Shown: positions 5,501 to 45,087 of the stretch, piece by piece
Position numbering within the stretch: position 1 is the first letter of the stretch
Layout of the letters: each line of letters begins with the position of its first letter
Assembly (NCBI GenBank): GCA_030390025.1
Contig: CM059432.1
Coordinates: 22,012,001-22,076,000 of the forward strand
Reading direction: 5' to 3'
Source of the DNA: Squalus acanthias
Taxonomy: Eukaryota
DNA: 64,000 nucleotides
Made by a program: the position numbers and the translations under genes
Notes under the pieces: model-generated
What the model saw: only the letters and a program-made list of their open reading frames with translations
What the model was told of the DNA's origin: nothing
Database searches by the model: none

Positions 5501-5984
5501 ATTAGTTGACTTTGTTAAGTTCCATTGGATGGATTGATGGATAAAGTTGGATTGGAATGTTTCTTTTGTGGTGGTTTTTATGTCAGCCTAGTGGCCAAGT
5601 GGACGCTGTGATTGTCAGTAACAGAGGACAGGTATAGAATCATAGAATCATAGAATGGTTACAACACAGAAGGAGGCCATTCGGCCCGTCGATCCCGTGC
5701 CGGCTCTCTGCAAGAGCACTTCAGCTAGTCCCACTCCCCTGCCCTTTCCCCATAGCCCTGCAATTTTTTTTCCTTTAGGTACTTATCCAATTCTCTTTTG
5801 AAAGCCATGGTTGAATCTGCCTCCACCACCCTTTCAGGCAGTGCATTCCAGATCCAAACCACTCGCTGAGTAAAATGTTTTTCCTCATGTTGCGTTTGGC
5901 TCTTCTGCCAATCACCTTAAATCTGTGTCCTCTGGTTCTCGACCCTTCCTCCAGTGGGAACAGTTTCTCTCTATCTACTCTGTC

Positions 5985-8037: not shown

Positions 8038-9255
8038 TAGACGCCTCATGATTTTAAACACCTCTATCAAATCTCCTCTTAATCTTCTCTGCTCTAAGGA
8101 GAACAACCCCAGCTTCTCCAGTCTATCCATGTAATTGAAGTCCCTCATCCCTGGAACCATTCTTGTAAATCTTTTCTACACCCTCTCTAAGGTCTTCACA
8201 TCCTTCCAGTTGAGGCCGAACCAATATTTTATAAATGTTCATCATAACTTCCTTGCTTTTTTACTCTCTGCCTCTATTCATGAAGCCCAGGATCACGTAT
8301 GCTTTTTTAACCGCTTTCTCAACCTGCCCTGCCACCTTCAATGATTTGTTCACATATACCCCTAGGTCACTCTGTTCATGCACCCCCTTTAGAATTGCAC
8401 CCTTTTGTTTATATTGCCTCTCCTTGTTCTTCCTACCAAAATGTATCACTTTGCACTTTTCTGCATTAAATTTCATCTGCCACGTGTCTGCCCATTCCAC
8501 CAGGCTATCTATGTCCTCTTGAAGTCTATCACTATTCTCCTCATTGTTCACTATACAGGAAACTCTTTATTAACCGGCACCGACGGGACCGGCGTGGTGC
8601 CGGTTAATCAAAAAGTCCGGATAACGGAGAGTTATATCTCCCAACGTACGAGAGCCCCGTACACATTGACATGCGCCTGCATGTAGAATTCGCAATATAT
8701 CGCGATTTGATTAATGAGGAGAAAACACAAAGTTTCGTTCAAACAGCTTTTATTTCAGCAGAATGCTGGCAGGTTTAAATTGGACACAAGCAGCCTGTAA
8801 AATGGCCGCCGCACCTCGTGACAGAACATTCTAGACTTTTCAACAGGCAGACAAGATGGCGTTCCAATAAACATTTGTGCAAGATCGATTACGATTCAGC
8901 ACAGTGAAGATAATACACGAGACATTATGGGTTTGCAGTATAAACATAGATACTGGAATCGGTCTCCCAGGTACAAAGGAAAGCCATTGTACCGAGTAAT
9001 CAAGGGCCCATCCAAAGGACATTAATATGTAAATCCCAACGACTCTACGATGAGAGAGCCGTTAGCAGGTAGTTATACAGGACACTTGGAAGCCCCAAAC
9101 CCCTCCAGGGAGAACACCGACCGATTTAACAATGGGAGAAATATTAACAGGCACTCAGACATTTATGAGTAGCCCCGAAACCCATTAAGAACGGAGATCA
9201 CCCATACAAGACATTTGGGCGCCAAACCCTAAACAAAAGAATGGACATTATAGTT

Positions 9256-9311
9256 GGGCGGGAAACGGAAGATTTTTGCACTATAATTGCAGGCTCCAAA
9301 CCGTCCATTCT
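9256..9311 (+). promoter_or_regulatory. Candidate LTR promoter: GC box, ETS-like CGGAAG, TATAA, Inr
   Basis: GGGCGGG 9256, CGGAAG 9266, TATAA 9282, CCATTCT 9305 followed by a pyrimidine run; an alternative TATATAA lies at 10019. Confidence 0.5.
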
Positions 9312-9519
9312 CTCTCTTGCTCTGGCATTCGCTCGCTTGCTCCTGTGTGTTATCCGGTCGATTCGTAACCTCGTGGCTGCTCCTGTGTACTCGTAGTTGG
9401 GCTTCTGCTTGCCCGTTGCCCTTTCTGAAAAGACTGTTGAACTTTCTGATCCGTTCGGATCTACCTCGTGTCGCGTAACGAAGACCTATGTTGGTAACTG
9501 GCAGCGGAACCGAAGGCCC

Positions 9520-9552
9520 GAGATGAGATGAGATGAGATGAGATGAGATGAG
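9520..9552 (+). repeat. (GAGAT)n microsatellite within the LTR (same length in the 3' LTR)
   Basis: gagatgagatgagatg... read directly in both LTRs. Confidence 0.9.
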
Positions 9553-10355
9553 AAGAGAGGAAGACCATATCCATCGCCACGGTCAGTAAATCCCGACCGC
9601 GCCTGTAGGTCGATCAGCCAAGTTTTCCTCGCCAGGAAGATTTCTATTTTGAACTTTTAACAAAACATATTGCATCGACGATAATGGGACTGTGTCTAAG
9701 GAGACTGGTACGTGAAACCAACCAACAGAGATCTTCATCACAGCAGACGGTCCAGCCTACTAGCCGGAGCAGCAGAAGCAAGTAAACAAGTGGGACCAGG
9801 AGATCTCCTGACCGACACGTGGGTGCTGCGGTGAAAAACATCCGATCAGCTATTCGGAATTTCTCCGAGTTATCACGAGTGGTGAGCATGAGTCTCGAGA
9901 TCCTACGAAGCTAGTTTAGGATAGATATTGATAGGGGAGGGTTTAAGGATTAAGGATATTTGTAATGTGTGCCCCTATTTACTTTGTGCCGTTCGTTCCT
10001 CGTTTCCCTAAGATCGACTATATAACTGTTTGTAAGATTGTACTGTCATTAATCTGTGCTTATGACATGTATTTCATAATTTTAAGTATCATGCAATAAA
10101 GATTTTCCATTTCGTACCATTCAAACCAAGTCTACATGAGTTTTATCTCCATTACTGCTCTCGCATCTAAGTCCAGTGTCTAGAACCGTAAGGGAGAGTG
10201 ATTCGAACCACTCACAGGTGTGTCTAGTGTTCCCAGACTGGCTGGAGACCAGAACAGGCAACCAGGCCTAGACCCGCACTGACATACAGGCTGCACAGAG
10301 CCGCGTGAACCTCACAGGCTGCGAGACACGCAGGGTCAGGAATCCCTTACAGAAA

Positions 10356-12167
10356 ATGGCGACCGCGGCAGGACACTGGCAGCGAGAGGGTAGTGTGTTA
10401 GATTTTGGAATGACTGTACGAAATGTTATGCAGGAAAAGATAGCGGATTATGTGTTTGGAAAGGTTAATCTAACCAAGAAATGGATAAGTGAATTGTTAG
10501 CGGATAAGAGCCCACTAGAGGCAGCTGAAAGGTGGACAGATAGTAAAGAACATAGAAAGACACTTGAGAAAGCAGTCTGGCTTATGTGCTACAAAAGGCA
10601 GGTTCAGATTTCAAACCAGACCATTACAGCGCTAGTAGCTCGAATCAGTCATTTAGAGGGAGAAATGGAGGAGAAGGTTTCTGGAGGGGAGGTGCTCATT
10701 AAGAATTTAAATGAGTTACACCAGGAAAGCCAGGAAGTCTCCAGTCACCTTAAAACAAGGATAGATTATCTCGAGTGCCAGGTCACTGAGGCAAAATTGA
10801 ATGAGAGCAGGTTAAAGGAAAGATGTAACCGCCAAGCTGCCCAGATAAGAACTCAAGAAGAGAGCTTAATGGGGGTTAGGTCGGCATATAAGTTGGCCCT
10901 TGAGGATAAGTTTCAGGGAGCCGACCATAGCGCCTGCCAAAGGGAGATAGAGAACCTCAAAAAGGCCGTGAACAATGCGAACGGCATGGTGTGCCTTATC
11001 AATCCGTCGGCGCACCAGCCGCTAGTAAATGAGAGATTTAGAAAATCCCCACCAAGTAAAGCAGAAGAAGTAGTAGCCACTGCGCCCTCCGCGCCACCCA
11101 GCTATTCAGAAACCTGGGTTAGGGAGGAAGCAATGGAAGAAACAAAAGAGCCCATTGAAAAGGAAGTAGAAAAGGGATCGCTGTATCCAGTAACGGGTAT
11201 TAAAAGGGGCCCAAGCAGAAACGGTGGGGAAGAACCGGGAGATCTCCTCGGACAGCTGGTGTTGCCTCACAGTTCACATCAGCTGAGAGCTATGATAAAT
11301 CACGTACGGAAGCTGACCGAGATAGACGACCCTTCCGTACATTTCAGAGAAGTTGAGCAAGCCGCAGCCATTAACGGCTGCGATGATGGGGAGACAGCAA
11401 AAATGCTGCTGTTCTCATTAGACAGCTCGGTCCTTCAGTGTCTCTCAGGCGAGAGCAAGAGGGGAAACAAGAGTTATGAGGAATTAAAGAATGAGGTCCT
11501 AGAAGTGTTGGGGGCGAACGACGGAGGTCCGTTTGCTAGAGTGGGACAGACAGTGCAGATGGAGGGAGAACCCCCGAAGGTTTTTGCCGACAGGCTGTGG
11601 CCAGTATATGAGCGCAGCTGTCTAGGTGCGCCCGAGCGCGAAGATGTGGAAGGCGCCGCTTTAACTCATTGGCTTAGGTGCATAATAGCCAACAGTTTAC
11701 CAGCCGTTAGAGAGCAGGCAAAAGCATGGTTTGATCCCAATGACCTCAACCTTACGGAAGAGTCGGTCTTGAATCGACTCACGTTAGGTTATCGTAATAT
11801 AAGGGGTATGACGACACGTCCCTTTAAGGGAAGAGTACATGAGGTACGACCCGCAGCCCCGTATCAAAGAGAGTGGCATCAGGAGGGTAATCGCGCCCCA
11901 CAGGCAAGTAATGCTTGTTACGGGTGTGGGAAGACAGGGCACTGGCGCAAGCATTGCAGGAACCCTTGGAAGGATTCCAAGGATAAAAATCCCGCGGTCC
12001 GAGCCCAGGCGCCTGTCCCGGCTAAGGAAGCCAAGGCACCCACCCCTCCCGACGACCTCGAAGCAGTGTTAGGAGCCATGCGCAAGCTAGTCTTGAATGC
12101 GCGTGGACAGGTGGCGGTCGCAACCGGCCCCGTAGGTGCCGCAGGACCGTCTAATAGTGCCCCATGA
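10356..12167 (+). CDS. gag: Gag polyprotein (603 aa from ATG 10356): coiled coil, PSAPPSY late domain, CA-like region, one CCHC knuckle
   Basis: First ATG after the LTR in strong context (AAAATGG); CYGCGKTGHWRKHC at 11916-11957; lies between PBS and pol. Confidence 0.92.
   Translation: MATAAGHWQREGSVLDFGMTVRNVMQEKIADYVFGKVNLTKKWISELLADKSPLEAAERWTDSKEHRKTLEKAVWLMCYKRQVQISNQTITALVARISHLEGEMEEKVSGGEVLIKNLNELHQESQEVSSHLKTRIDYLECQVTEAKLNESRLKERCNRQAAQIRTQEESLMGVRSAYKLALEDKFQGADHSACQREIENLKKAVNNANGMVCLINPSAHQPLVNERFRKSPPSKAEEVVATAPSAPPSYSETWVREEAMEETKEPIEKEVEKGSLYPVTGIKRGPSRNGGEEPGDLLGQLVLPHSSHQLRAMINHVRKLTEIDDPSVHFREVEQAAAINGCDDGETAKMLLFSLDSSVLQCLSGESKRGNKSYEELKNEVLEVLGANDGGPFARVGQTVQMEGEPPKVFADRLWPVYERSCLGAPEREDVEGAALTHWLRCIIANSLPAVREQAKAWFDPNDLNLTEESVLNRLTLGYRNIRGMTTRPFKGRVHEVRPAAPYQREWHQEGNRAPQASNACYGCGKTGHWRKHCRNPWKDSKDKNPAVRAQAPVPAKEAKAPTPPDDLEAVLGAMRKLVLNARGQVAVATGPVGAAGPSNSAP
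10357..10374 (+). promoter_or_regulatory. Primer binding site, tRNA-Arg(TCG)
   Basis: TGGCGACCGCGGCAGGAC is the reverse complement of GTCCTGCCGCGGTCG-CCA, the 3' end of vertebrate tRNA-Arg(TCG) as I recall it; 5 nt after the LTR. Confidence 0.85.
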
Positions 12168-15100
12168 CTAGAACCAGCACAGCCCGTCTACCTGTGTCCG
12201 CTTAGCTATGATGCGTGGAGGCGACCTGTGGTGGAGATGGAGGTAGAGAAACAGAAGGGCAGTTATTTGTTGGACACGGGAGCTTCTTGCACCATAATCC
12301 ATACAGATGACCCTTTTGACTCGCCGCTATCTACCAAGGTCCCATTCACGTTGGCAGGGTTCACAGGAAAAGAACAGGCTGGCACGTTTTCCCTTCCGCT
12401 ATCCATTCGTTTAGGAACACTTCGCCTTAAGTGGAAGTGTATACTGATGGCATGGCAAAAGGGGGGTGGAAGAGGTATTCTCGGGTCCGATCTCCTAGCG
12501 GGACACGGGATCCTCGTGGACCTCAGAAATCACTGTCTCTGGGGGGCTAAAGGTGAAAAAGGCGAGGTAATAGTGATTCCGGGGGAGGAAGAAACAGGGG
12601 TCCTGTGTACCGTACAGCCATCCGGAGGCTACGACCTCAGGCTTATGGTCGCAGATGTCCCAACGGACATGCAAACGTACGTGTCAGATAATATGCACGC
12701 GTTTGCAACCCACAAGCACGATTGTGGGAGAGTGGTCGGGTTTGAGGTCAGCGTAGATGGGGACCCCATGACCCGACCCCAAAAGCAGTATAACTTCCCC
12801 AAAGAAGCAGAACCCGATATGGAGACAGCAATGTCTTCCTTGGTGCAGCAGGGCGTGTTAAGGCCGATAGCCACACACGTGAACTCCCCATTATGGCCGG
12901 TTAGGAAGCCGGATAATTCGTGGAGAGCCACGGTGGACTACAGAGTCCTTAACAGTAACATTTCCGCCTGCGCGCCCACAGTAGCAGCAGTTGCTGACCT
13001 AATAGGGAGCATCCCAGCGTCCGCGACCACGTTCACGGTGCTGGATATCTCGAACGGTTTTTGGTCCATCCCGCTGCGGCGAGAGGACCAGTACAAGTTT
13101 GCCTTTACGTTCAAAGGGCAACAGTACACGTGGAACTGTCTGCCACAGGGTTTCCACAATAGCCCCAGTATTTTTCATCAGTGTATGGCAGGAAGTTTAA
13201 AGGAGTTTAGTCAGCCCAATCAGATAGTACAGTATGTGGATGATTTGCTCCTATTTACGGACTCAAGGGAGGAGCACGGACCACTACTGGACGAGTTATT
13301 GGAACTGTTAGCGAGAAAGGGTTTTAAAATAAATCCTAAGAAAGCACGTATCGGTCAGCGGGAAGTAAAATTCCTGGGACTGACCATACGCGCTGGGGAA
13401 AGAGCCATAGACAAAGCAAGGAGGGAGTCGGTGCAAGAATTACCGATTCCCAACAACGTAAGGGGTGTGAGGTCCTTCTTGGGACTGACCGGTTACTGCA
13501 GGGATTTTATCGAAGATTATGCGGCCACAGCGGCGCCGCTCCTCCGACTCCTCCATAAGGGGGTGGAGTGGCTTTGGGACGAGGGCTGCCAAGCAGCCTT
13601 CGAGAAGTTAAAAAGGGATCTGCAGACCGCGCCAGCCTTAGGGGCCATAGATGGGGGGAAGGAGTTTTTCCTGGAGGTAGCTGCCAGCGGAGACAGCTTA
13701 AGCGCCGTGCTGCTCCAAGAGCGTCACGGCAAGCTGAGGCCGGTTGTCTATTCATCCAGGGTATTAACGGATGTGGAGAGAAGTTTCTCCAATTGCGAAA
13801 GGCACCTTTTAGCCACGCATTGGGCTGTGAAAAGATCAGCGATCTTCACAGGGCTCTCTCCCATCACTCTCCTCACACATCACACACCAACTAAGATGCT
13901 TCTGGATGGGAGGATTAAAGACGGGACCGTAAGCAGCGCACGCATTGCGCGTTGGACCCTTCTTCTCTCCCAGTTGGATCTTAGAGTAAAGGGTCTTTGC
14001 GAGCCCAGGCTTGCGGCCAATTTGGTATACCCCGGTACAGCCCACCGGTGTTCGGTGGAAGGGGTGTGGGACGTCAACATAGGTTTACGGGCCGGGATAC
14101 ATCCCACTGGGCGCGAGATTTATGTTGATGGGTCTAGCACAGTGTCTGCTGGCGAGCGACTCACAGGGTGTGGAGTTTATGACCCTGCGGCAGACCTTGC
14201 CCTGGCGATCAAGCTCCCTAGCACTATGAGCGCGCAGCAAGCTGAGCTGTCTGCCGTGGTGTACGTTGTGACCCACCCAGACATTTTCCCAACCCCATAC
14301 ACGATTTGCTCGGACAGTATGTTCACCTGCAATTCGTGTACGGAATACCTGGCCATTTGGTCCCGCCGCGGATACACCTCCGCGGACGGGCGACCTTTAA
14401 CGGTGAAGCCCTTGCTGGAAAAGATCTTAGCAGCAGCAGTAGGGGAGGAAGGAGAGATTTTCATCCATAAGGTGAAAGCTCACTCCTCCACAGAGCCCCG
14501 TGGGGAGGGCAACCGGCAGGCGGATGCGCTAGCCAGGGAGGGTGCCCGCGACGGCACTTTCTGGAACCCCTACAGGACCGGACCCATAGCAGCGGTCCGA
14601 GGCGGGGACGGGAATACCGGGAACACCAGGGTAGCATTGCCCCTAGACCTCAAGACCGTCCAAGCCCAGGATCCCGCCCTAAAAGCAGTCCTAAAAACGA
14701 TTGCTGAGGGGAGGCAGGTAGAAGGTCCGTACAGTACGGCAACCCTCTCAGTTAAGGAAGGCATGCTGTTCCGCGAGGAGCAGTGGGTTGTGCCGCAGCA
14801 GCACAGGAGGGAATTCCTCCAGTTGGCTCACGAGGGACCAGGGGCAGGGCACCCCGGGCCCGAGGTTACCTGGCAACGGGTAGAGCAGGCGGGATGGTGG
14901 CCAGGGCTCAGGGAACAAGTCCGCGAGTTCTGTGCAAACTGTCTTGTGTGCGCCGCAAACAACCCAGACCCCCAGAAAAGGAAGGTGCCCATGGGACACG
15001 TAAGAAGGGTAGAGGGACCATGGCAGTCGATACAGATCGACTATATAGGACCCCTGCCCACCACCCAGGGAGGTTATAAGTACTGCCTCGTCCTGGTGGA

Positions 15101-16652
15101 TGTGTTTTCCAAGTGGGTGGAAGCCTTCCCTTGTCGAACAGCTACAGCACTGGGTACAGCAAAAATCTTGGTCCGGGAAGTGTTCTCGCGGTGGGGACTC
15201 CCCCGTTTTGTGGAGTCAGACCAAGGGAGTCATTTCACCGGCCAGGTGATGCAGAACACCCTCATGCTTTTGGGCATTGAAGGGAAGTGGCACGTAGCAC
15301 ACAATCCCCAGTCATCCGGGATTGTAGAACGTATGAACCGGACCCTGAAGGAGAAATTGAGGAAAGAGACTAGGAACTCGCCCCAAAAATGGGCGGAAGT
15401 TCTGCCTTTAGTCCTCATGGGGGTCCGGGCCAGTCAGTCAAAAAGTACGGGGTACTCCCCGCACGAGGTAATGACTGGGAGGCTCATGCGAACCCCCACC
15501 CATGTGCTAGCGCCGGTGCTCACTGAGGGTCAGCTCCAAGAGATAAGCAGGGACAAGTTCGCCCAGACTCTCTTGGAGCGCCTGAAGCAAGTTTATGAGC
15601 AGGCGGCTGGGAACATGGGAAGGCAGCATCAGGGCAATCGCTTGTTGCTGGAACCCCGCAAAACGCGGGAGTGGGAAGTAGGAGACCAGGTCATGGTCAG
15701 AAACTACGCCAGAGTGGGGAGTCTGGAACCACTATATATGGGACCCTACAACATTGTAGACAAGGCGAGTCCCATGGTTTACGCCGTAAAAGTACCTCGG
15801 CGCACTAAGTGGTTCCACATAAACCAATGCAGACTGTACCAGCCGGGTGCGCAGGGGAAAACTACAGGGGTAAATCCCGCCAATGGGAAAGCACAGCCCC
15901 AGGTAGGACCACAAGGCACACAGGCAGGCATAGCAGCTTGCATCAGGGGAAGGGACATCCCGGACGATCATGCAGCGTTTTTCTGGAGTTGGGGGTTAGA
16001 TGAGGAAGAACCCAGGGTACCCTGGTCAGATGAGGATAGTGCAGATGAGCATAGTGATGATGACGGGTGGTTCCTGAGGAACGGTCTGGGGGGAATGGGG
16101 CCTATAGGTAGAGATCCACACAGGGTGGACACACAAGCTGCAGGTCCCGAGGACAGAAGGGAGGAGCTAGAGGAGGCAGGGCCAGCCGCTATAGGAGCAC
16201 AGAGAGTACCGATGTGGCTCCCAGAGATGTGGCCGCCCGCTTTGAACGTCCAGTCCTCAGGGGAGGCAGAGATCACGAGTGAAGGGCCGCTTGCTGGGCC
16301 GAGCAGGGCGGAGCCACGAACTGCCAGCCCCGAGGTTAGGGAGGCGGAGTCAGCGGAGGCGGAGCCGGCGACTGTGATGGAACCCCAGGTCATCCCGTTG
16401 GAGGTCTCGGAACCCGGTCCGTCCGTCACGGAACCCCCGCCCATAGCAACTCCCCGTAGGTCAAGTAGAGAACCCCAGCCCAGGAGGATGTGGTCATGTC
16501 CCCAGACTGCCCCAAGGCGTAGACTTCAGGTTAAGATAACCCGGGTACAGACCGGCCACATCGCAGCAGTAACAGGCTGCGGCAGATCAGAGGGAAGGGT
16601 CAGTGCCCTCCCACCGTCGGGAAGAGCTCGCAGCAGCCTTCTCAGAATTTAA
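12168..16652 (+). CDS. pol: Pol (protease, RT, degenerate RNase H tether, RNase H, integrase, C-terminal extension), in frame with gag
   Basis: LLDTGAS (12273), LPQGFHNSP, YVDD (13233), YVDGS/AELSA/SDS/KAH/NRQAD RNase H, HHCC + D,D,E integrase (IQIDYIG, ESDQGSHF, VERMNR), GPY motif; frame is open from the codon after the gag stop. Confidence 0.96.
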   Translation, partial: LEPAQPVYLCPLSYDAWRRPVVEMEVEKQKGSYLLDTGASCTIIHTDDPFDSPLSTKVPFTLAGFTGKEQAGTFSLPLSIRLGTLRLKWKCILMAWQKGGGRGILGSDLLAGHGILVDLRNHCLWGAKGEKGEVIVIPGEEETGVLCTVQPSGGYDLRLMVADVPTDMQTYVSDNMHAFATHKHDCGRVVGFEVSVDGDPMTRPQKQYNFPKEAEPDMETAMSSLVQQGVLRPIATHVNSPLWPVRKPDNSWRATVDYRVLNSNISACAPTVAAVADLIGSIPASATTFTVLDISNGFWSIPLRREDQYKFAFTFKGQQYTWNCLPQGFHNSPSIFHQCMAGSLKEFSQPNQIVQYVDDLLLFTDSREEHGPLLDELLELLARKGFKINPKKARIGQREVKFLGLTIRAGERAIDKARRESVQELPIPNNVRGVRSFLGLTGYCRDFIEDYAATAAPLLRLLHKGVEWLWDEGCQAAFEKLKRDLQTAPALGAIDGGKEFFLEVAASGDSLSAVLLQERHGKLRPVVYSSRVLTDVERSFSNCERHLLATHWAVKRSAIFTGLSPITLLTHHTPTKMLLDGRIKDGTVSSARIARWTLLLSQLDLRVKGLCEPRLAANLVYPGTAHRCSVEGVWDVNIGLRAGIHPTGREIYVDGSSTVSAGERLTGCGVYDPAADLALAIKLPSTMSAQQAELSAVVYVVTHPDIFPTPYTICSDSMFTCNSCTEYLAIWSRRGYTSADGRPLTVKPLLEKILAAAVGEEGEIFIHKVKAHSSTEPRGEGNRQADALAREGARDGTFWNPYRTGPIAAVRGGDGNTGNTRVALPLDLKTVQAQDPALKAVLKTIAEGRQVEGPYSTATLSVKEGMLFREEQWVVPQQHRREFLQLAHEGPGAGHPGPEVTWQRVEQAGWWPGLREQVREFCANCLVCAANNPDPQKRKVPMGHVRRVEGPWQSIQIDYIGPLPTTQGGYKYCLVLVDVFSKWVEAFPCRTATALGTAKILVREVFSRWGLPRFVESDQGSHFTGQVMQNTLMLLGIEGKWHVAHNPQSSGIVERMNRTLKEKLRKETRNSPQKWAEVLPLVLMGVRASQSKSTGYSPHEVMTGRLMRTPTHVLAPVLTEGQLQEISRDKFAQTLLERLKQVYEQAAGNMGRQHQGNRLLLEPRKTREWEVGDQVMVRNYARVGSLEPLYMGPYNIVDKASPMVYAVKVPRRTKWFHINQCRLYQPGAQGKTTGVNPANGKAQPQVGPQGTQAGIAACIRGRDIPDDHAAFFWSWGLDEEEPRVPWSDEDSADEHSDDDGWFLRNGLGGMGPIGRDPHRVDTQAAGPEDRREELEEAGPAAIGAQRVPMWLPEMWPPALNVQSSGEAEITSEGPLAGPSRAEPRTASPEVREAESAEAEPATVMEPQVIPLEVSEPGPSVTEPPPIATPRRSSREPQPRRMWSCPQTAPRRRLQVKITRVQTGHIAAVTGCGRSEGRVSALPPSGRARSSLLRI

Positions 16653-16903
16653 AGGGGCCGCCCTGAGAACGGGCGGCACTGTAAAGTTATAGTTCTAAGT
16701 TTTAAGTTTATAGTTCAAGGTTAAGGTTGTAATTTTAATAAGGCTAAGTTTGTAGTGTTTTTAACAGAAAACGATAAATGATGGGAGTTTTAAGGTTAGG
16801 TTTAGAGGAAGTTTATTCAGCAAACGTTGAAGTTTACGTGAGGCGAGGTCAGGGGACCCGCTCACCCTTCACAAAAGCCAGAGACTCTTGCGAGGCTGGC
16901 TAC

Positions 16904-16923
16904 CTCATTCTATCTGATCACAG
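16904..16923 (+). promoter_or_regulatory. Candidate env splice acceptor
   Basis: ctcattctatctgatcacag|g, 13 nt upstream of the signal-peptide ATG at 16937; alternative acceptor tttttaacag ~16767. Confidence 0.45.
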
Positions 16924-16936
16924 GAACCAAGGAAGG

Positions 16937-19288
16937 ATGGAACGAATTCTAGTATTGCTCGTGGCAATCGGATGTGGATTGGCCTATCGAGGCCACACCA
17001 AGGATGTCGTGGTGTTTGGATGTTCCGGGGACACGGCCCCCATCGCGGTGGATGGGACCGGAAGACGGAAGGCAGAGGGGACCAGCACCTATTTCCACAA
17101 GGGAAGGTGGCCAGGATGGCTGGGAACGAACTCAACGGAGTATTCTAGCACATCGGGGTTTGCCTACCAAGAGACTTCTTTACTGTGCCCCAAAGTAAGG
17201 ATCATCGCACCCAGGATCAGCGTCACCGTCGGCAAACGGATTTGTTTGACTTGTAGTGGGAAGGTCCCATTGAGCCGATGGTGGTGGCTGCGAAAGCTGA
17301 GCAAAACTATGAGAAACTCTTCGGTCGAGTGGGAACGACTGGGTAATAATACCCATCGGACAATTACGGGGACAGACGGACAAGTGAAAGTCTGTTGGGA
17401 CAAATGGTGGGAACCGGATGAGGGAATTTATGTATGTATGTGGGGGTCAAAGTACGTTTGCCCCAAAGGCATCTCCATATTTTTTATTAATCAATGGCAG
17501 GATAACGGACAGGGGATGAGGTGGGATGCGAGCACCAGGGGGTGCGGAGCCCCATTCTCCCCGATCCCAGTAAATGCCACTGAACTCATTACGCGCCCAC
17601 GCAAAGCCCCGCCCACGATTCCGGTGGTTCTAGCTGAGGAAGAAGGGTGCCCTAAAACTAGTAAGGGACCCGGGAATGGTTTGGTACTGGTCCCCACAGA
17701 CCAGATACTCTTTCAGGGGGTACATTACGCGGTGGCCTCGGTGATTTTAAATCTCACTGAGGTACGGTTACCAGAGTGGTGCCCCAAAAAGACGGAACAG
17801 TTGTATCAGGTCCTGTTGACCAAGATGTTCAGACAATTTTACGAGTTTGATTTTGCAGAAATTGATAAGACAAGTTTGTATACCGCACCGCAGGAAGTTT
17901 TGGATCAAGTAGGGAGGCAAAGAAGGGGTTTGGTGAACGATGCGTTCACTGCTTTTAACACAGGGACATCTGTGGTCAACGCTCTCGACAGTGTGGAGCT
18001 GCAGACCCAGATTAATGGTTTAAAAACACAGTTAAAAGACATTCTAACAGATGAGAATAAAGTGGTAGGGTCAGGTCTACACGAGGACCAAGCCATGACT
18101 CTCCATTTAAAGGAAATTATAGCAGAGCTGGAGAAACATGCGCGTACGGTAAATGCCCTGATCAGGGAAGATCGGAATGCATCCGATCAAGCTGCGCAGA
18201 ACGAGGTGTGCGTGCTTTACGGGGCGTGGTTACTGGGCGAGGGCCGCAGTAATTTGGAGGATTTAAAACAAGGTTTGGTTCCGTCCTGGATAAGTAACAA
18301 ACACCTACGGGCGCTCCACCCTTTTCAGAACGCATTAAGTCCGTGCCAGCTCAGGCTAGCTTCAGAAGCTTACCCAGTCCCCGTGGACTGCGGACGATCA
18401 AACCATACTATTATGGGAATAGTATTACGCATGCCGGTTTTGGGCGACACAGCAAAGCCCGCCCCGGTATATCGGGTAGAGAACATTGGTGTCATTCAGG
18501 GGGGAGCCCACATTCGTTACGCAGCGGTTCCACCTTACGTCATCCGCTGGGAGCAAACGATGACAGGTACAGATCTCTCTGGTTGTCGTGGCAGGGGAGC
18601 ACACATAATACTGTGCCCCCAGCACTTGAATGCCTTTTTAACACCACAGTGCGGGTTCAGAACGGCTGGCGCCAAGTCCATGAATTGCACCATGGAGGCA
18701 ATGGCACAAGATCATGTGCCTCCGCAGGTAGCATACATCGGGGGTGGAACATATTGTGTTACCACTGCAGCGCAACACTACCAGCATGGAAACCGTAGCC
18801 GGTGTCCGGTGAGTGACAGCAGTTTCTGTTTTAAACCCAGGGCTGAAGTTCAAGTAGCACAACAGCGAATTATCCCAATCCCTGAACCATCCACTGTTCA
18901 TCTCACAGTAAAAGAGAATTTCACCGACTTGCAGCGATTTGTCGCGCATTTTGGATACCTCATTCCCCCTCTCCCTGAACACTTAACCAAACTTCTGAAA
19001 GCCGTCGCGGTATCACAGAAACATTTTTATACATTAGAGCAGAAAACTGTCGAAATAGGAACAGACATTTTGGACATAGTAGTTCCACCGTGGTGGAATC
19101 TGTTCACTAATATTGAAGTGCCTTCATGGATCAGAATAGCCTCCCACATTTTAGTCGTATGTCAAGTGTTTATTGTAGTGTACCTATTGGTCATACATTG
19201 TAAAAGAGACAAACGCCTCACCAAGCATGAAAACACGGGAGAGTGGCGAGAACGTTACGTGCGCGTGCACGATGAGAGCACCGTGTAA
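16937..19288 (+). CDS. env: Envelope glycoprotein (783 aa from MERILVLL): signal peptide, Ig-like domain, furin site, F-protein-like fusion subunit, TM anchor
   Basis: Signal peptide MERILVLLVAIGCGLA; RQRR/GLVNDAF at 17915-17926; heptad repeats; Cys-rich ectodomain; TM IASHILVVCQVFIVVYLLVIHC; many N-x-S/T sequons. Confidence 0.9.
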   Translation: MERILVLLVAIGCGLAYRGHTKDVVVFGCSGDTAPIAVDGTGRRKAEGTSTYFHKGRWPGWLGTNSTEYSSTSGFAYQETSLLCPKVRIIAPRISVTVGKRICLTCSGKVPLSRWWWLRKLSKTMRNSSVEWERLGNNTHRTITGTDGQVKVCWDKWWEPDEGIYVCMWGSKYVCPKGISIFFINQWQDNGQGMRWDASTRGCGAPFSPIPVNATELITRPRKAPPTIPVVLAEEEGCPKTSKGPGNGLVLVPTDQILFQGVHYAVASVILNLTEVRLPEWCPKKTEQLYQVLLTKMFRQFYEFDFAEIDKTSLYTAPQEVLDQVGRQRRGLVNDAFTAFNTGTSVVNALDSVELQTQINGLKTQLKDILTDENKVVGSGLHEDQAMTLHLKEIIAELEKHARTVNALIREDRNASDQAAQNEVCVLYGAWLLGEGRSNLEDLKQGLVPSWISNKHLRALHPFQNALSPCQLRLASEAYPVPVDCGRSNHTIMGIVLRMPVLGDTAKPAPVYRVENIGVIQGGAHIRYAAVPPYVIRWEQTMTGTDLSGCRGRGAHIILCPQHLNAFLTPQCGFRTAGAKSMNCTMEAMAQDHVPPQVAYIGGGTYCVTTAAQHYQHGNRSRCPVSDSSFCFKPRAEVQVAQQRIIPIPEPSTVHLTVKENFTDLQRFVAHFGYLIPPLPEHLTKLLKAVAVSQKHFYTLEQKTVEIGTDILDIVVPPWWNLFTNIEVPSWIRIASHILVVCQVFIVVYLLVIHCKRDKRLTKHENTGEWRERYVRVHDESTV

Positions 19289-19717
19289 TCGGAAAATGGC
19301 GTCACTCCCGCTCGCCGCGTGCGCCGCGGAAGTTTGTACTCATATAAGATTTTCAGAGATTGTAAATACGTTGGGAACTCGACATGTTTCAGAGTTGGGG
19401 TTTTGATTATTTTAGTGATGGTGTTGATTGTTTGGTTTTGGGTTTTGTTTTTTCCTTTCCCTGAATAAAAGACAAATATACAGGTGATACGAGGGGTATC
19501 GGCCTGGTTACACCGGGAAGGAAAACGAGTGGTGTAAGTTTAAGGGCAAATAATGCCTACGGTGATATAAAATGTGATTTTCTTGGGAAATAAGGACGAC
19601 ACAGAGACCCTAGCTAAGTTAAAAATTATGGGATTAATTTACTGGATTCGGAGAGAAATCGAGATAATATTGCTCACCACTATGATTCTTGATACGATAA
19701 GCGGAGTTATTCGCATC

Positions 19718-19729
19718 AACAGGAGGGAC
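19718..19729 (+). promoter_or_regulatory. Polypurine tract (short)
   Basis: aacaggagggac immediately before the 3' LTR TG. Confidence 0.7.
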
Positions 19730-21399
19730 TGTAGAATTCGCAATATATCGCGATTTGATTAATGAGGAGAAAACACAAAGTTTCGTTCAAACAGCTTTTA
19801 TTTCAGCAGAATGCTGGCAGGTTTAAATTGGACACAAGCAGCCTGTAAAATGGCCGCCGCACCTCGTGACAGAACATTCTAGACTTTTCAACAGGCAGAC
19901 AAGATGGCGTTCCAATAAACATTTGTGCAAGATCGATTACGATTCAGCACAGTGAAGATAATACACGAGACATTATGGGTTTGCAGTATAAACATAGATA
20001 CTGGAATCGGTCTCCCAGGTACAAAGGAAAGCCATTGTACCGAGTAATCAAGGGCCCATCCAAAGGACATTAATATGTAAATCCCAACGACTCTACGATG
20101 AGAGAGCCGTTAGCAGGTAGTTATACAGGACACTTGGAAGCCCCAAACCCCTCCAGGGAGAACACCGACCGATTTAACAATGGGAGAAATATTAACAGGC
20201 ACTCAGACATTTATGAGTAGCCCCGAAACCCATTAAGAACGGAGATCACCCATACAAGACATTTGGGCGCCAAACCCTAAACAAAAGAATGGACATTATA
20301 GTTGGGCGGGAAACGGAAGATTTTTGCACTATAATTGCAGGCTCCAAACCGTCCATTCTCTCTCTTGCTCTGGCATTCGCTCGCTTGCTCCTGTGTGTTA
20401 TCCGGTCGATTCGTAACCTCGTGGCTGCTCCTGTGTACTCGTAGTTGGGCTTCTGCTTGCCCGTTGCCCTTTCTGAAAAGACTGTTGAACTTTCTGATCC
20501 GTTCGGATCTACCTCGTGTCGCGTAACGAAGACCTATGTTGGTAACTGGCAGTGGAACCGAAGGCCCGAGATGAGATGAGATGAGATGAGATGAGATGAG
20601 AAGAGAGGAAGACCATATCCATCGCCACGGTCAGTAAATCCCGACCGCGCCTGTAGGTCGATCAGCCAAGTTTTCCTCGCCAGGAAGATTTCTATTTTGA
20701 ACTTTTAACAAAACATATTGCATCGACGATAACGGGACTGTGTCTAAGGAGACTGGTACGTGAAACCAACCAACAGAGATCTTCATCACAGCAGACGGTC
20801 CAGCCTACTAGCCGGAGCAGCAGAAGCAAGTAAACAAGTGGGACCAGGAGATCTCCTGACCGACACGTGGGTGCTGCGGTGAAAAACATCCGATCAGCTA
20901 TTCGGAATTTCTCCGAGTTATCACGAGTGGTGAGCATGAGTCTCGAGATCCTACGAAGCTAGTTTAGGATAGATATTGATAGGGGAGGGTTTAAGGATTA
21001 AGGATATTTGTAATGTGTGCCCCTATTTACTTTGTGCCGTTCGTTCCTCGTTTCCCTAAGATCGACTATATAACTGTTTGTAAGATTGTACTGTCATTAA
21101 TCTGTGCTTATGACATGTATTTCATAATTTTAAGTATCATGCAATAAAGATTTTCCATTTCGTACCATTCAAACCAAGTCTACATGAGTTTTATCTCCAT
21201 TACTGCTCTCGCATCTAAGTCCAGTGTCTAGAACCGTAAGGGAGAGTGATTCGAACCACTCACAGGTGTGTCTAGTGTTCCCAGACTGGCTGGAGACCAG
21301 AACAGGCAACTAGGCCTAGACCCGCACTGACATACAGGCTGCACAGAGCCGCGTGAACCTCACAGGCTGCGAGACACGCAGGGTCAGGAATCCCTTACA
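19730..21399 (+). repeat. 3' LTR (1670 bp)
   Basis: Direct repeat of 8682-10351, followed by TSD TGCA. Confidence 0.97.
21143..21148 (+). terminator. Poly(A) signal in the 3' LTR (10095-10100 in the 5' LTR)
   Basis: AATAAA after an AT-rich tract, ~250 nt before the LTR end. Confidence 0.65.
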
Positions 21400-23479
21400 T
21401 GCATTCGGAGCTCCGTCTCCCCGGGGACCGCCAGCTGACCATCTGTCGTGTCCGCTGCCTACCCGGGCTGCACATTCCCCTCCCAATCTACACGCTCCGA
21501 TACAAGGCAAATGCCTCGGGGTTTTTTTTAAAGTTAATTCTAAATGAGAGATGAAGGAAAACCCTGGTTACCTACTCAAGAATTTTGCCGGTTAAGAGAG
21601 ATTTCCGGATATTTGGGTGCCGGTTAATAAAGAGTTTCCTGTATTTCCAAGTTTTGTGTCATCTGCAAATTTTGAAATTGTGCCCTGTACATCCAAGTCT
21701 AAGTCATTAATATATATCAAGAAAAGCAGTGGTCCTAGTATTGACTCCTGAGGAACACCACTGTATACTTTCCTCCAGTCCGAAAAACAACCGTTCACCC
21801 CTACTCTCTGTTTCCTGTCACTTAGCCAATTTCATATCCATGTCACTATCCCTTTTATTCCATGGGCTTCAACTTAGCTGGCAAGCCTATTATGTGGCAC
21901 TTTATCAAACGCCTTTTGGAAGTCCATGTATACCCCGTCAACCACATTGCCCTCATCAACCCTCTCTGTTACCTCATCAAAAAACTCAATCAATTTAGTT
22001 AAACATGATTTGCCTTTAGCAAATCCATGCTGGCTTTCCTTAATTAATCAATGCTTGTCCAAGTGACTGTTACTTTTGTCCCGGATTATTGTTTCTAAAA
22101 GCTTCCCCACTACCGAGGTTAAATTGACTGGCCTGTAGTTGTTGGGTTTTTTGAACAATGGCGTAACGTTTGCAAGTCTCCAGTCCTCTGGCACTATCCC
22201 CATATCTAAGGAGGGTTGGAAGATTATGGCCAGTACCTTCGCAATTTCCACTTTTACTTCCCTCAGCATCCTAGGATGCATCCCATCTGGTCCTGGTGAC
22301 TTATCTACTTTAAGTACAGCCAGCCTTTCTAGTACCTCCTCTATCAATTTATATCCCATCCAGTATCTCAACTACCTCTTCTTTCACTATGACTTTGGCA
22401 GCATCTTCTTCCTTGGTAAAGACAGTTGCAACGTATTCATTTAGTACCTCAGCCATACCCTCTGCCTCCATGTGTAGGTCTCCATTTTGGTCCCTAATCG
22501 GCCCCACCCCTCCTCTTACTACCCGTTTACTATTTATATGCCTATAGAAGACTTTTGGATTCCCTTTTTTCTTAGCAGACAATCTATTCTCATATTCTCT
22601 CTTTGCCCCTCTTATTTCATTTTTGACTTCCCCTCTGAACTTTCTGTATTCAGCCTTATTCTCAACCTGACATCTGTCATACGCTCCCTTTTTCTGCTTC
22701 ATCTTGCTCTCTATCTCTTTCGTCATCCAGGGAGCTCTGAATTTGGTTGCCCTCATGGGAATGTACCTCGACTGTACCAGAACCATCTCCTTTTAAAGGG
22801 AGCCCATTGTCCGATTAAAGTTTTGCTTGCCAATCTTGGATTCCAATTTACCCGGGCCAGATCCATTCTCAACCCACTGAAATTGGCTTTCCGCCAATTA
22901 AGTATTTTTACTCTAGATTGCTCCCTGTCCTTTTCCATAGCTAGTTTAAACCTTATGAGACTGTGATCACTGTTCCCTAAATGTTCCCCTACTGACACTT
23001 GCTCTGCTTTACCCACCTCATTCCCCAGACCCAGTTCCAGCAATGCCTTCTTCCTCATTGGGTCAGAAACTTACTGATCAAGAAAATCCTCCTGAACACA
23101 CTTCAAAAATTCTTCAGTGTGTTTCTCTCTCCACAGTTGCTGCCTGACCTGCTGAGTATTTCCAGCATTTTCTGTTTCTATTTCTGAAATTCTTCCCCCT
23201 CTCTGCCCTTTACACTATTACTATCCCAGTCTATATTAGGATAGTTGAAGTCCCCCATTATCACTACTCTATAGTTCCTGCACCTCTCTGTAATTTCCCT
23301 GCAAATTTGCTCCTCTATATCCTTTCCACTAGTTGGCGGCCTATAGAACACACCTAGTAGTGTAATGGCACCTCTATTGTTTCTCAACTCTAACCAAATA
23401 GATTCTCCAGGACCTAGCCTCCAGGTAAGGTGTGGGACTATTATTGATAGGGGAATTGGGGTTGTGTTCACTCGTACCA

Positions 23480-26740: not shown

Positions 26741-29290
26741 CATAAGAAATAGGAGCAGAACTAGGCCATTCGGCCCCTTGAGCCTGCCCCGCCATTCAAT
26801 AAGATCATGGCTGATCTGATCTTGGCCTCATCTCCAATTTTCTGCCTGTTCCCCATAATCCTTGACTCCCCTGTAGTTCAAATGTCTGTCTATCTCAGCC
26901 TTGAATATATTCAAATGACTCGGCCTCCACAGCTCTCTGGGGTAGAGAATTCCAAAGATTCACGACCCTCTGAGAGAAGAAATTCCACCTCATTGCGGTC
27001 TTAAATGGGCAACCCCTTATTCTGAAACTATGACCCCTAGTTCTAGATTCCCCCATGAGGGGAAACATCCTCTCAGCATCTACCCTGTCAAGCCCCCTCA
27101 GAATCTTATATGTTTCAATAAGATCACCTCTCATTCTTCTAAACTCCAATGAGTATAGGCCCAATCTGCTCAACCTTTCCTCATAAGACAACCCTTTCAT
27201 CCCAGGAATCAACCTAGTGAACCTTCTCTGAGCTGCCTCCAATGCAAGTATATCCCTCCTTAAATAAGGAGACCAAAACTGTATGCAGTACTCTTGGTGT
27301 GGTCTCACCAGCGCCCTGTACAGTTGTAGCAAGACTTCCCTACTTTTATACTCCATCCACCTTGCAATAAAGGCCAACATTCCATTTGTCTTTCTAATTA
27401 CTTGCTGTACCTGCATGCTAACTTTTTGTGTTTCATGTACAAGGACACCCAGATCATCTGTACTGCAGCATTCTGTAGTCTCTCTCTATTTAAATAATAT
27501 TTTGCTTTTCTATTCTTCCAACCAAAGTGGATAACCTCACATTTTCCCACATTATACGCCATTTGCCAAATTTTTGCCCACTCACTTAACCTATCTATAT
27601 CCCTTTGCAGACTGTCCTCCTCACAACTTGCTTTCCCACCTATCTTTGTATCATCAGCAAATTTGGCTACAGTATACTCGGTCTCTTCATCCAAGTCATT
27701 AATATAGATTGTAAATAGTTGAGGCCCCAGCACTGATCCCTGTGGCACCCCACTAGTTACAGTTTGCCAACCTGAAAATGACCCATTTATCCCGACTCTC
27801 TGTTTTCTGTTAGTTAGCCAATCCTCTATCCATGCTAATATATTACCCCCAACACCATGAGCTCTTATCTTGTACAGTAAACTTTTATGTGGCACCTTAT
27901 CAAATGCCTTTTGGAAATCCAAATACACTACATCTACTGGTTCCCCTTTATCCACCCTGCTCGTTACATCCTCAAAGAATTCTAATAAATTTGTCAAACA
28001 TGATTTCCCTCTCATTAAACCATGTTGACTCTGCTTGATTGTATTATGATTTTCTAAATGTCCTGCTATTACTTCTTTAATAATGGATTCCAGCATTTTC
28101 TGAATGACAGATGTTAGGCTAACTGGCCTATAGTTTCCTGCTTTCTGTCTCTCTCCTTTCTTGAATAGGGGTGTTACATTTGCGGTTTTCCAATCCGCTG
28201 GGACCTTTCCAAAATCTAGGGAATTTTGGAAGATTACAACCAATGCATCACTATCTCTGCAGCCACTTCTTAAAATAGGATGCAGGCCATCAGGTGCAGG
28301 GGACTTGTCAGCCTTTAGTCCCATTAGTCTGTCTAGTATGTTTTCCCTAGTGATAGTGATTGTTTTAAGTTCCTCCCTCCCTTTTGCCCTTTGATTTTCC
28401 ACTAATATTGGAATGCTTTTAGTGTCTTCTACCGTGAAGACAGGTACAAAATATTTGTTCAAAGTGTCTGCTATTTCCTTGATTCCCATTATTAATTCCC
28501 CAGTCTCATCCTCTAAGGGACCAACTTTTACTTTAGCTATTCTCTTCCTTTTTATATACTTGTAGAAGCTCTTATTGTCTGTTTTTATATTTCTTGCTAG
28601 TTTACTCTCCATCTATTTTCTCCTACTTTATTTTGTTTTAGTCGTCCTTTGAAAGTTTCTAAAAATTTCCCAATCTTCTGGCCTACCACTAATCTTCGCA
28701 ACATGGTATGCCTTTTCTTTCAATTTGATATCCTCCTTAACTTCCTCAGTTAGCCACGGATGGTTCATCCTTCTCGTAGAGTCTTTCTTTCTCACTGGAA
28801 TATATCTTGATTGAGAGTTATGAAATATCTCCGTTAAAGTCTGCCACTGCTTATTTACCATCTTGCCCTTTAATCGATTTTCCTAGTCCACTTTAGCCAA
28901 CTCTGTCTTCATACCCTTGTAATTGCCTTTATTTAAGTTTAAGACACTAGTTTCAGAACCAAGTTTCTCACCCTTAAACTGAATGTGAAATTCTATCATG
29001 TTATGATTACTCTTTCCAAGAGGGTGCTTTACTATGAGATCATTAATTAATCCTGTCTCATTACACATTGCCAGATCTGAAATAGCCTGTTCCCTGATTG
29101 GTTCCACAATGTATTGTTCGAAGAAACTGTCTGAATACACTCTATGAACTCGTCCTCAAGGCTATCTTTGCCAATTTGATTTGTCCAATTTATATGAAGT
29201 GTAAAATTGCCCACGATTATTGCAGCACCTTTCTTACAAGCCCCCATTATTTATTGATTTATACACTGTCCTACAGTGTAGCTGCTGTTA
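26741..29290 (-). mobile_element. CR1 LINE ORF2 (endonuclease end + RT), frameshifted
   Basis: ORFs 27398-28612 and 26895-27416 with YLDFQKAFDKV and KFADDTKIGG; tail cataagaaataggagc at ~26741. Confidence 0.92.
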
Positions 29291-43846: not shown

Positions 43847-45087
43847 ATGGGAACCATTAATTTCCTTTCATCATAGAGCCTCAGATTCAGATGAGGAGCA
43901 TCCATGGCAGCAGCAGAACCAGGCAGCTCAGCAGCAACAGCAGCAGGAGCCCCAACCTCCTGCTCAGCCACCTGATGCTGCACAGGGCAGAAGGCGCCAG
44001 CGCATCGAGGCACCTCACCGCAGGAGATACCCCCCACAGAGGGTTTACAGACAGAGGATGAGCAACCTCAACAAGAGTAAGCAGCAGTGCCAAAGGAGGC
44101 TGAGACTTTCAGGAGAGGTTGTCCGAGAGATCTGCGGCCTGCTGCAGCAAGACCTGGTGCCCAGATGAATGGGTGGACACCCCTTACCAGTGGCCGTCAA
44201 AGTCACCACCGCACTCAACTTCTTTGCCTTAGGCTCCTTCAAGGGATTATCAGCAGACATCAGCGGCATCTCCCAGTCGGCCGCCCACAGTTGCATCACG
44301 CAAGTTACCGATGCCCTTTTCGCAAAGGCGCACAATTACATCCAGTTCACAAGGGATCAAGCAAGTATAACTGCCCGTTTGGTTGGCTTTGCAAATATGG
44401 CAGGCATGCCAATGGTGCAGGGCGTAATAGACTGCACACATGTGGCCCTTAGGGCACTCCATCACAACCCAGCTATCTTTGTCAACCGAAAGGGCTTCCA
44501 CTCCCTCAACGTACAGCTGGTGTGTAACCACAAGGAGTTCTTGCATGTTTGCGTCAAGTTCTGTGGTAGTTGCCATGACTCTTTCATCCTGCGGCACTCT
44601 AGTGTTCCTCCATTCTTCAATCCGCCAAACCAACTTAACGGATGGCTCCTTGGTGACAAAGGCTACCCCCTGAACAAGCGGCTAATGACGCCGATCAGGA
44701 GGCCAGCTAACGAGGCTGAAGAGCGCTACAACGCCAGCTACACTTCGACCAGGTCCATCATCGAGCAAACCATTGGGTTGTTGAAGATGCGCTTCCGTTG
44801 CCTTGACCGATCAGGTGGAGCCCTGCTGTATACATCATACAGGGTCTCCAGAATGGTCTGCTGTGCACTGCACAACATCGCACAGCGTCGTGGCTTGCAG
44901 CTTCCTGATGAGCAAATGGCTCAGTTCCAGCCCTCCTCAGATGAGGATGAGGAGGAGGAGCAGGAGGAGGAGGAGGAGCAGGAGGAGGTCAGAGCGCCTG
45001 GTGTATCGACCAGCGGCAGCGGCAGCACGCAAGCACATGGCTGCCCGGGATGCAAGGGATGAACTTATCCTGGCCAGATTTGCATAG
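43847..45087 (+). pseudogene. Harbinger transposase (HARBI1-like); DDE core open in 44169-45062, ends disrupted
   Basis: [57 protein letters not shown]. Confidence 0.9.

What the first reader, a model, noticed from the sequence alone, without database searches (positions are those of the whole stretch)
17650..19288. Env is an F-protein-type class I fusogen, not a retroviral SU/TM
Seen: after the furin site RQRR (17915-17926) the membrane-anchored subunit is 453 aa. It has a small-residue fusion peptide (GLVNDAFTAFNTGTSVVNA), a long HR1, a Cys-rich domain (DLSGC...LCP...QCG...NCT...YIGGGTYCV...CPV...FCF), HR2, a Trp-rich pre-TM segment, a TM helix and a tail with YVRV. No CX6CC or immunosuppressive motif was found. 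Known: gamma-type TM subunits are much shorter, whereas this layout matches paramyxo/pneumovirus F1 and the related baculovirus-F/errantivirus Env. Inference: fusogen exchange between viral groups; an intact ORF like this could be fusogenic or co-optable.
Basis: partly seen in the sequence, partly recalled or inferred. Interest (0 to 1): 0.8.

Follow-up and report, generated by a model that had tools for sequence, protein, structure and literature searches.

The report
F-type envelope in young shark retrovirus
This is the envelope gene of a very young, many-copy endogenous retrovirus, likely of a shark or ray; its fusion part is a distant sequence relative of the fusion (F) protein of measles-type viruses and likely works like it, which matters because the virus groups with ordinary retroviruses and not with the lokiretroviruses known for such envelopes.

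Summary
An open env frame (16778-19288) has RQRR at 17915-17926 and a 453-aa membrane-anchored subunit with no CX6CC and no TLV_coat match. It lies in a provirus with open gag, pol and env frames, LTRs differing at 3 of 1670 bases, a 4-bp target duplication and a tRNA-Arg primer site; 1,443 genomic sites match one env 26-mer exactly. Sequence supports F kinship: residues 303-677 align in register with a paramyxovirus F (score 131; 0 of 500 shuffles reach it), and a language-model search ranks Fusion_gly and Baculo_F first. The fold itself is not shown: both AlphaFold models failed (pLDDT 33 and 31). F-type envelopes are already known in lokiretroviruses, foamy viruses and errantiviruses. This element's RT, however, falls with canonical retroviruses (loki grouping rejected, p=0.004), nearest frog and coelacanth ERVs, and snakehead retrovirus Env also scores as F-like. 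At about 21% identity, old inheritance fits better than a recent swap. It is not a co-opted gene. The scan found this family before at other loci of this genome.

The parts
8682..10351 (+). 5' LTR, 1670 bp, TGTA...TACA; target duplication TGCA at 8678-8681
10357..10374 (+). Primer-binding site, 18 nt, complementary to host tRNA-Arg(TCG) plus CCA; overlaps the first ATG of the gag frame
10356..12167 (+). gag frame (603 aa from first ATG), long helical N-terminal half, one CCHC knuckle, ends in TGA in frame with pol
12168..16652 (+). pol: protease, RT (LPQG, YVDD), tether, RNase H, integrase; likely made by read-through of the gag stop (inferred)
16778..19288 (+). env frame, 836 codons; likely start at ATG 16937, which is followed by a hydrophobic signal-like stretch (inferred)
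17198..17437 (+). Possible Ig-like domain in the surface part (aa 141-220); below the Pfam cut-off
   Evidence: E 0.21-0.51; E 0.016
17648..17914 (+). F2-like segment (aa 291-379): strand, Cys335 and helix align with paramyxovirus F2 and with SnRV Env
17915..17926 (+). Furin-type site RQRR, in register with the F and SnRV cleavage sites
17927..17983 (+). Candidate fusion peptide, weakly hydrophobic
17987..18247 (+). HR1 region (aa 404-490)
18398..18829 (+). Cys-rich F1 head region (aa 541-684); aa 541-650 is what the paramyxovirus F profile matches
18950..19081 (+). HR2 region (aa 725-768), followed by a Trp-containing pre-membrane segment
19136..19201 (+). Transmembrane helix (aa 787-808); short tail with YVRV at 19256-19267
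19721..19729 (+). Short purine-rich tract before the 3' LTR
19730..21399 (+). 3' LTR, differs from the 5' LTR at 3 of 1670 bases; TGCA follows at 21400-21403

Best explanation
This is the env gene of a very young endogenous retrovirus whose fusion part is a distant sequence relative of paramyxovirus F, and it likely works as an F-type class I fusogen likely inherited within a deep branch of ordinary retroviruses rather than newly captured. Shown: open frame, cleavage motif, 453-aa anchored subunit, in-register similarity to F on both sides of the cleavage site, provirus anatomy, RT placement outside lokiretroviruses, purifying selection on env between older subfamilies. Inferred from F biology (PMC11468914 and general knowledge): a signal peptide from Met54 routes Env to the surface; furin cuts after RQRR; the F2-like piece stays bound to the anchored subunit, likely through Cys335; the trimer is triggered by receptor or low pH, HR1 extends, the N-terminal peptide inserts, and HR2 folds back to merge membranes. 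The roughly 220 residues in front of the F core, with a possible Ig-like domain, would supply attachment (least supported step). Selection on env suggests the family spread at least partly by re-infection (inferred).
For: Local alignment with L072 F over 375 residues, 131 against max 87 of 500 shuffles; two more F proteins at 107 (0 of 500 each). 5 of 24 F proteins score 92-131, against max 73 for 24 unrelated Pol pieces and max 71 for the reversed Env. A profile of the 24 F proteins scores Env 11.1 bits on aa 541-650, 0 of 500 shuffles reach that (max 4.0); the two gamma-type control Envs score similarly but only on HR2/TM, and shuffles of the one control shuffled reach 12.2. ESM Atlas: Fusion_gly 0.94, Baculo_F 0.94, Gypsy env 0.91, 10 of 10 best family hits in one clan. 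Invariant Cys and LxxP columns across this Env, two older copies, SnRV Env and three F proteins. RT tree of 37 rows: canonical retrovirus clade 100/99 holds the query, loki clade 100/99 apart; AU test rejects query group + loki, p=0.004. SnRV Env has no TLV_coat match, aligns collinearly with this Env (85; 1 of 500 shuffles) and gets Baculo_F 0.94 / Fusion_gly 0.91 in the Atlas. dN/dS 0.11-0.15 in 9 distant and 0.24-0.47 in 6 close pairs among six older copies.
Against: No Pfam Fusion_gly or Baculo_F hit at E<=1 and no PDB sequence hit to F. hhalign of the Env alignment against the F alignment gave E 0.29 and 19 of 44 shuffles reached its score. 19 of 24 F proteins score no higher than 77. Both AlphaFold models failed (pLDDT 33.3, 31.3) and Foldseek found nothing at E<=0.001. 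Atlas recognition scores (1652, 1611) are below the level at which a high score is strong. The SnRV link is modest: BLASTP not significant, hhalign E 0.13, HMM score -2.3 within shuffles, surface parts not alike (211 of 500 shuffles). The fusion peptide is weakly hydrophobic. The env genes of the closest RT relatives (frog, coelacanth, turtle) could not be fetched, so inheritance within the branch is inferred. The tree lacks alpha, beta, delta, lenti and Odin rows and holds one foamy-like row; the AU groups were fixed after seeing the tree.
Confidence: 0.75

Rival explanations
1. It is simply a lokiretrovirus, the first in a cartilaginous fish.
For: F-like Env, RXKR-type site and dual RNase H match the loki definition (PMC7947760). 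Tether (39% vs 28%) and integrase (42% vs 35%) are closer to the two best loki rows than to SnRV. Loki Env passages in the paper's supplement show the same motif order by eye.
Against: RT is 32-38% identical to five loki rows, 46% to SnRV, 52-54% to frog and coelacanth Pols; it has LPQG where the loki rows have CPFG/TPFG; AU p=0.004.
Confidence: 0.07
2. The lineage captured F from a negative-strand RNA virus, or from a lokiretrovirus, replacing an ordinary env.
For: The best pairwise score is to a paramyxovirus F (131), higher than to SnRV Env (85). Neighbouring ERV families in the RT tree carry gamma-type env, so env swaps have happened in this part of the tree.
Against: Only about 21% identity to the best F; relatives in a sawshark and a skate and older subfamilies with saturated dS make any capture old; SnRV, foamy and loki envelopes are F-like too, so several captures would be needed.
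Confidence: 0.13
3. The likeness to F is only a shared class I layout (helices, Cys, length) of an unrelated or highly diverged retroviral TM.
For: No significant Pfam, hhalign or fold match.
Against: The F profile matches the beta-rich, Cys-bearing region and not the coiled coils; similarity runs across the cleavage site into F2; local shuffles that keep composition do not reach the score.
Confidence: 0.04
4. A host-domesticated, syncytin-like fusion gene.
For: Open frame and low dN/dS.
Against: It sits in a provirus with near-identical LTRs and a target duplication, and 1,443 sites share an env 26-mer; the low dN/dS is between viral subfamilies, not between host orthologues.
Confidence: 0.01

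Closest known systems
Snakehead retrovirus (SnRV), exogenous fish retrovirus, unclassified Orthoretrovirinae (PMC12193657; record L087)
   Same: In-frame gag-stop-pol, helical Gag with one CCHC knuckle, RT 46% identical, Env without TLV_coat match and with a long C-terminal subunit (509 aa) that aligns collinearly with this one. Arg primer site: shown here; for SnRV the Arg label is recalled (Hart 1996, not readable).
   Different: Not resolved as sister in the RT tree (AU p=0.31); integrase and tether are more distant; LTR 1670 vs 518 bp; short tail, signal peptide inside the env frame; no 3' accessory ORF of 150 aa or more; surface parts not detectably alike.
Lokiretroviruses (Wang and Han, PMC7947760)
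   Same: Env related to paramyxo/pneumovirus F, RXKR-type site, tether plus RNase H, integrase close.
   Different: RT outside the loki clade; CCHC Gag and tRNA-Arg PBS not compared with loki; the paper found loki in none of 6 chondrichthyan genomes (my reading of the two number columns in its supplement).
Foamy virus Env (PMC11468914)
   Same: Retroviral Env with an F-like core ('class Ib').
   Different: In foamy Env the receptor-binding domain is inserted between the subunits; here the extra 220 residues lie in front of the F core. Gag here has a zinc knuckle and pol is in frame with gag; RT does not group with the foamy-like row.
Paramyxovirus F (PF00523), e.g. L072
   Same: F2/F1 layout, cleavage site position, Cys pattern, C-terminal subunit length.
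   Different: About 21% identity; less hydrophobic fusion peptide; N-terminal extension instead of a separate attachment protein.
Errantivirus / baculovirus F-type Env (PF12259, PF07253; 10.1101/2023.10.26.564294)
   Same: F-type Env on an LTR element; Atlas score 0.91-0.94.
   Different: Those are Ty3/gypsy elements of invertebrates; this Pol has dual RNase H and a retroviral RT. No direct sequence comparison was possible.

Membership tests
F-type (class Ib) fusogens | Sequence kinship with paramyxo/pneumovirus F across F2 and F1 | tested here: met
   not seen by Pfam or hhalign
F-type (class Ib) fusogens | Three-domain F fold | tested here: inconclusive
   AlphaFold pLDDT 33 and 31; Foldseek no E<=0.001; 7 of the top 10 PDB rows are foamy, hMPV or RSV fusogens at E 0.26-1.5, four of them chains of one entry
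F-type (class Ib) fusogens | Hydrophobic fusion peptide right behind the cleavage site | tested here: inconclusive
   in register but mean hydropathy 0.51 vs 0.93-1.48
F-type (class Ib) fusogens | Trimer, cleavage-dependent membrane fusion | not testable with these tools
   needs experiment
Gamma-type retroviral Env | CX6CC, immunosuppressive domain, TLV_coat match, TM subunit near 200 aa | tested here: not met
   controls from the same genome meet it
Lokiretroviruses | RT in the loki clade, sister to canonical retroviruses | tested here: not met
Lokiretroviruses | F-like Env with RXKR site; tether plus RNase H | tested here: met
Lokiretroviruses | Integrase close to loki/CGIN1 | tested here: inconclusive
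   42% to loki; loki rows join frog and coelacanth rows at 92/90, query unresolved; CGIN1 itself not in the tree
SnRV-like retroviruses (clade Huo of Xu et al., via PMC8922424) | RT/Pol groups with SnRV | tested here: inconclusive
   polytomy; AU p=0.31 does not reject
SnRV-like retroviruses (clade Huo of Xu et al., via PMC8922424) | In-frame gag stop, coiled-coil Gag with one knuckle, Arg primer | tested here: met
   (Gag similarity 4 of 300 shuffles); Arg label for SnRV recalled
Foamy viruses | RT in the foamy clade; Gag without zinc knuckle; pol not in frame with gag (last two recalled, knuckle also in PMC2717909) | tested here: not met
   (one foamy-like row only)
ERV4 (PMC4299795) | 5-bp target duplication, no Gag knuckle, no GPY/F-like motif | tested here: not met
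   4-bp duplication, CCHC knuckle and GPY present

The most novel reading that the evidence does not exclude
The F-type envelope is the ancestral retroviral envelope: kept in lokiretroviruses, foamy viruses, snakehead retrovirus and this shark-frog-coelacanth branch, and replaced later by gamma- and beta-type Env. Lokiretroviruses may even have taken their integrase-env block from this branch. Here it drives one of the largest very recent env-retaining expansions in a vertebrate genome, with its own front-mounted Ig-like attachment head.
Probability: 0.3. Interest if true: 0.75.

Novelty: new variant of a known kind. Interest (0 to 1): 0.5.

Why it matters
Wang and Han listed four scenarios for the origin of retroviral env and later preferred independent origins, on the ground that canonical and loki envelopes share no similarity (PMC7947760, PMC9040795). 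The foamy Env structure then tied a canonical retrovirus to F, and its authors read that as setting foamy viruses apart from orthoretroviruses (PMC11468914). An F-type Env on a non-loki, non-foamy retrovirus, and probably on the cultivable snakehead retrovirus that is filed under Orthoretrovirinae, weakens both readings and makes the question testable by one structure. I found no paper saying so in ten searches, but subscription journals, the original SnRV paper and bioRxiv supplements were not readable. The general idea that a retroviral Env can be F-like is known.

Tried and rejected
Pfam and PDB sequence searches of Env: blank. PF00523 over the own genome: nothing, uninformative by the tool's own note. 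AlphaFold with 6 and 31 rows failed; the Foldseek runs on the second model are not evidence. hhalign Env vs F no better than shuffles. The 50%-representative search and the complex predictor were not available, so no deep alignment and no trimer model. Viral-contig scan with the RT and metagenome scan with the Env alignment found no relatives. Third homolog search gave one more sawshark protein only. Expression: no RNA holder listed; contigs of three runs of uncertain kind cover the stretch, no env splice joint listed; no conclusion drawn. The foamy-like locus L088 gave no env frame like this one. Ig-like domain shared with SnRV: seen by eye, not supported (V-set E 0.064 on the SnRV piece). 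My first lead, lokiretrovirus, was dropped. Ovex1 (PMC2717909: SnRV-related Pol, 873-aa ORF3 without CX6CC) is a lead only; no sequence compared. Hart 1996 is not held.

Full report
Setting. The finding lies in an LTR element at 8682-21399. The LTRs are 1670 bp, begin TGTA, end TACA, differ at 3 positions and are flanked by a TGCA duplication. With the two rates used in the cited papers (2.2e-9 and 2.2e-10) that is 0.4 to 4 million years. An 18-nt primer site matches the 3' end of a host tRNA-Arg(TCG) gene plus CCA. gag ends in TGA in frame with pol; pol holds protease, RT, tether, RNase H and integrase. The host is likely a cartilaginous fish: named Env homologs come from a sawshark and a skate (4 of 5 hits named) and the genome is 3.7 Gb.

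Observation. All listed features are present. The 453-aa subunit equals paramyxovirus F1 in size (431-457 aa in 24 of 24) and is twice the 207 aa of a gamma-type control from the same genome. TLV_coat misses this Env and finds both control Envs. The fusion peptide is less hydrophobic than those of F, and heptad signals are modest.

Is it F? Standard searches are blank. The ESM Atlas puts Fusion_gly and Baculo_F first at 0.94, with a recognition score that makes this weak alone. I fetched 32 IMG/VR loci with a fusion-peptide pattern and kept 24 with a 480-700 aa frame and the motif at residue 90-190; 8 were dropped. Env aa 303-677 align with L072 F aa 30-404 without rearrangement, from the F2 strand and Cys through the cleavage site to the Cys-rich head; 0 of 500 local shuffles reach the score. 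This is the best of 24; 5 of 24 score 92-131, above every one of 24 unrelated Pol pieces (max 73) and 24 reversed-Env scores (max 71), and 19 score 77 or less. The F profile matches aa 541-650, the beta-rich region, where composition does not explain it. Against this, hhalign did no better than shuffles (19 of 44), both AlphaFold models failed and Foldseek gave no E<=0.001 (the top PDB rows were mostly foamy, hMPV and RSV fusogens, not significant). So kinship with F is supported by sequence; the fold is inferred.

Which virus? The obvious label is lokiretrovirus (PMC7947760: main text parts 1-3 of 4 read, supplement passages seen, file cut when stored). Reading the supplement's RT rows labelled my hits: P0029 is SnRV, confirmed by fetching its record, and the eel-type Pols P0036, P0038, P0047, P0050, P0065 carry the loki motifs (matched by eye). 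The query RT is 52-54% identical to frog and coelacanth Pols, 46% to SnRV and 32-38% to loki. A tree of all 121 rows and a careful tree of 36 of them plus one foamy-like row place it inside the canonical clade (100/99), in a group with frog and coelacanth ERVs (82/90); forcing that group with loki is rejected (p=0.004), forcing it with SnRV is not (p=0.31). Tether and integrase are nearer to loki than to SnRV, and in a 34-row integrase tree the loki rows join coelacanth and frog rows at 92/90, with the query unresolved. The Odin paper reports Odin integrase as sister to loki (PMC9040795, passages), which I could not include. SnRV-like ERVs in sharks are known (PMC4422223, part 1 of 2 read; PMC4977317 and PMC8922424, passages). 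ERV4 features are not met (PMC4299795, passages).

SnRV Env. It has no TLV_coat match, a 509-aa C-terminal subunit, a collinear alignment with this Env from Cys291 to the Cys-rich head (1 of 500 shuffles; hhalign E 0.13; BLASTP and HMM scores not significant) and the same Atlas neighbours. It is probably F-type too. The SnRV paper seen (PMC12193657, passages) does not discuss this in the passages shown; the foamy Env structure paper has no mention of snakehead or loki in its main text (PMC11468914, passages). Also seen as passages: 10.1101/2023.10.26.564294, 10.1101/2024.03.17.585361, PMC13709493, PMC2717909. bioRxiv supplements were closed and may hold vertebrate F-type env data; the first preprint says its vertebrate analysis will be reported elsewhere.

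Family and selection. All 150 scored copies (of 7,457 candidates) are identical over 170 aa, and 116 of these 150 have an open frame of 783 aa or more; they are the best matches, so this overstates intactness. One env 26-mer occurs at 1,443 sites, one RT 26-mer at 895 (variants at either site would shift the counts). Two tandem loci fetched lack most of pol but keep gag and env. Older subfamilies at 54-70% identity exist; among six copies chosen for long open frames dN/dS is 0.11-0.15 in 9 distant pairs and 0.24-0.47 in 6 close pairs, and dS to the window copy is saturated. Env has been kept under selection over a long time, as expected if the virus needs it.

Verdict. Real feature; F-type reading likely right; 'exchange' not shown and less economical than old inheritance; co-option not indicated. 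F-like retroviral envelopes are known, so the addition is the branch on which this one sits. I reached the SnRV-side reading, before seeing that earlier agents of this scan reported the same family and reading at other loci; those notes are not independent support.

Noticed in passing
window 10352-10374: Only 5 bases separate the 5' LTR from the primer site, and the first ATG of the gag frame overlaps it; leader and packaging signals would have to lie in the long LTR or gag starts further down.
   Followed up: partly
L049 (G000:C11:50287000-50296999), L050 (G000:C11:61700000-61709999): Tandem copies about 7.75 kb apart that share an LTR and lack most of pol but keep gag and env; a contig joint in one run starts at the same place (12199). 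Env sites outnumber RT sites 1,443 to 895.
   Followed up: partly
window 17198-17437: Possible Ig-like domain in front of the F core (Pfam Ig_3 E 0.016, below cut-off); SnRV Env has a weak V-set match near its start.
   Followed up: partly
window 14790-15500 (integrase): Loki integrases group with coelacanth and frog members of this element's RT group (92/90), hinting at an integrase (and perhaps env) transfer.
   Followed up: partly
window about 15950-16652: pol continues about 240 low-complexity residues beyond the integrase C-terminal domain.
   Followed up: no
L043-L047, L037-L042: Other young ERV families in this genome with in-frame gag-pol and gamma-type env; one sits among zinc-finger gene frames (C29).
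   Followed up: partly
L051-L054, L088: Foamy-like protease at 49 places in the genome, mostly in broken frames.
   Followed up: partly
G000:C26:39.0-42.2 Mb (L014-L016): Long tandem arrays (about 1.62 kb unit) of tRNA-Arg(TCG) and tRNA-Ser(GCT) genes; 422 exact sites of the primer tRNA end in the genome.
   Followed up: no
window 5921-7942, 26895-28612, 55608-56990, 44169-45062: LINE-type RT and endonuclease frames and a DDE_Tnp_4 (Harbinger-like) transposase fragment; ordinary repeats.
   Followed up: partly
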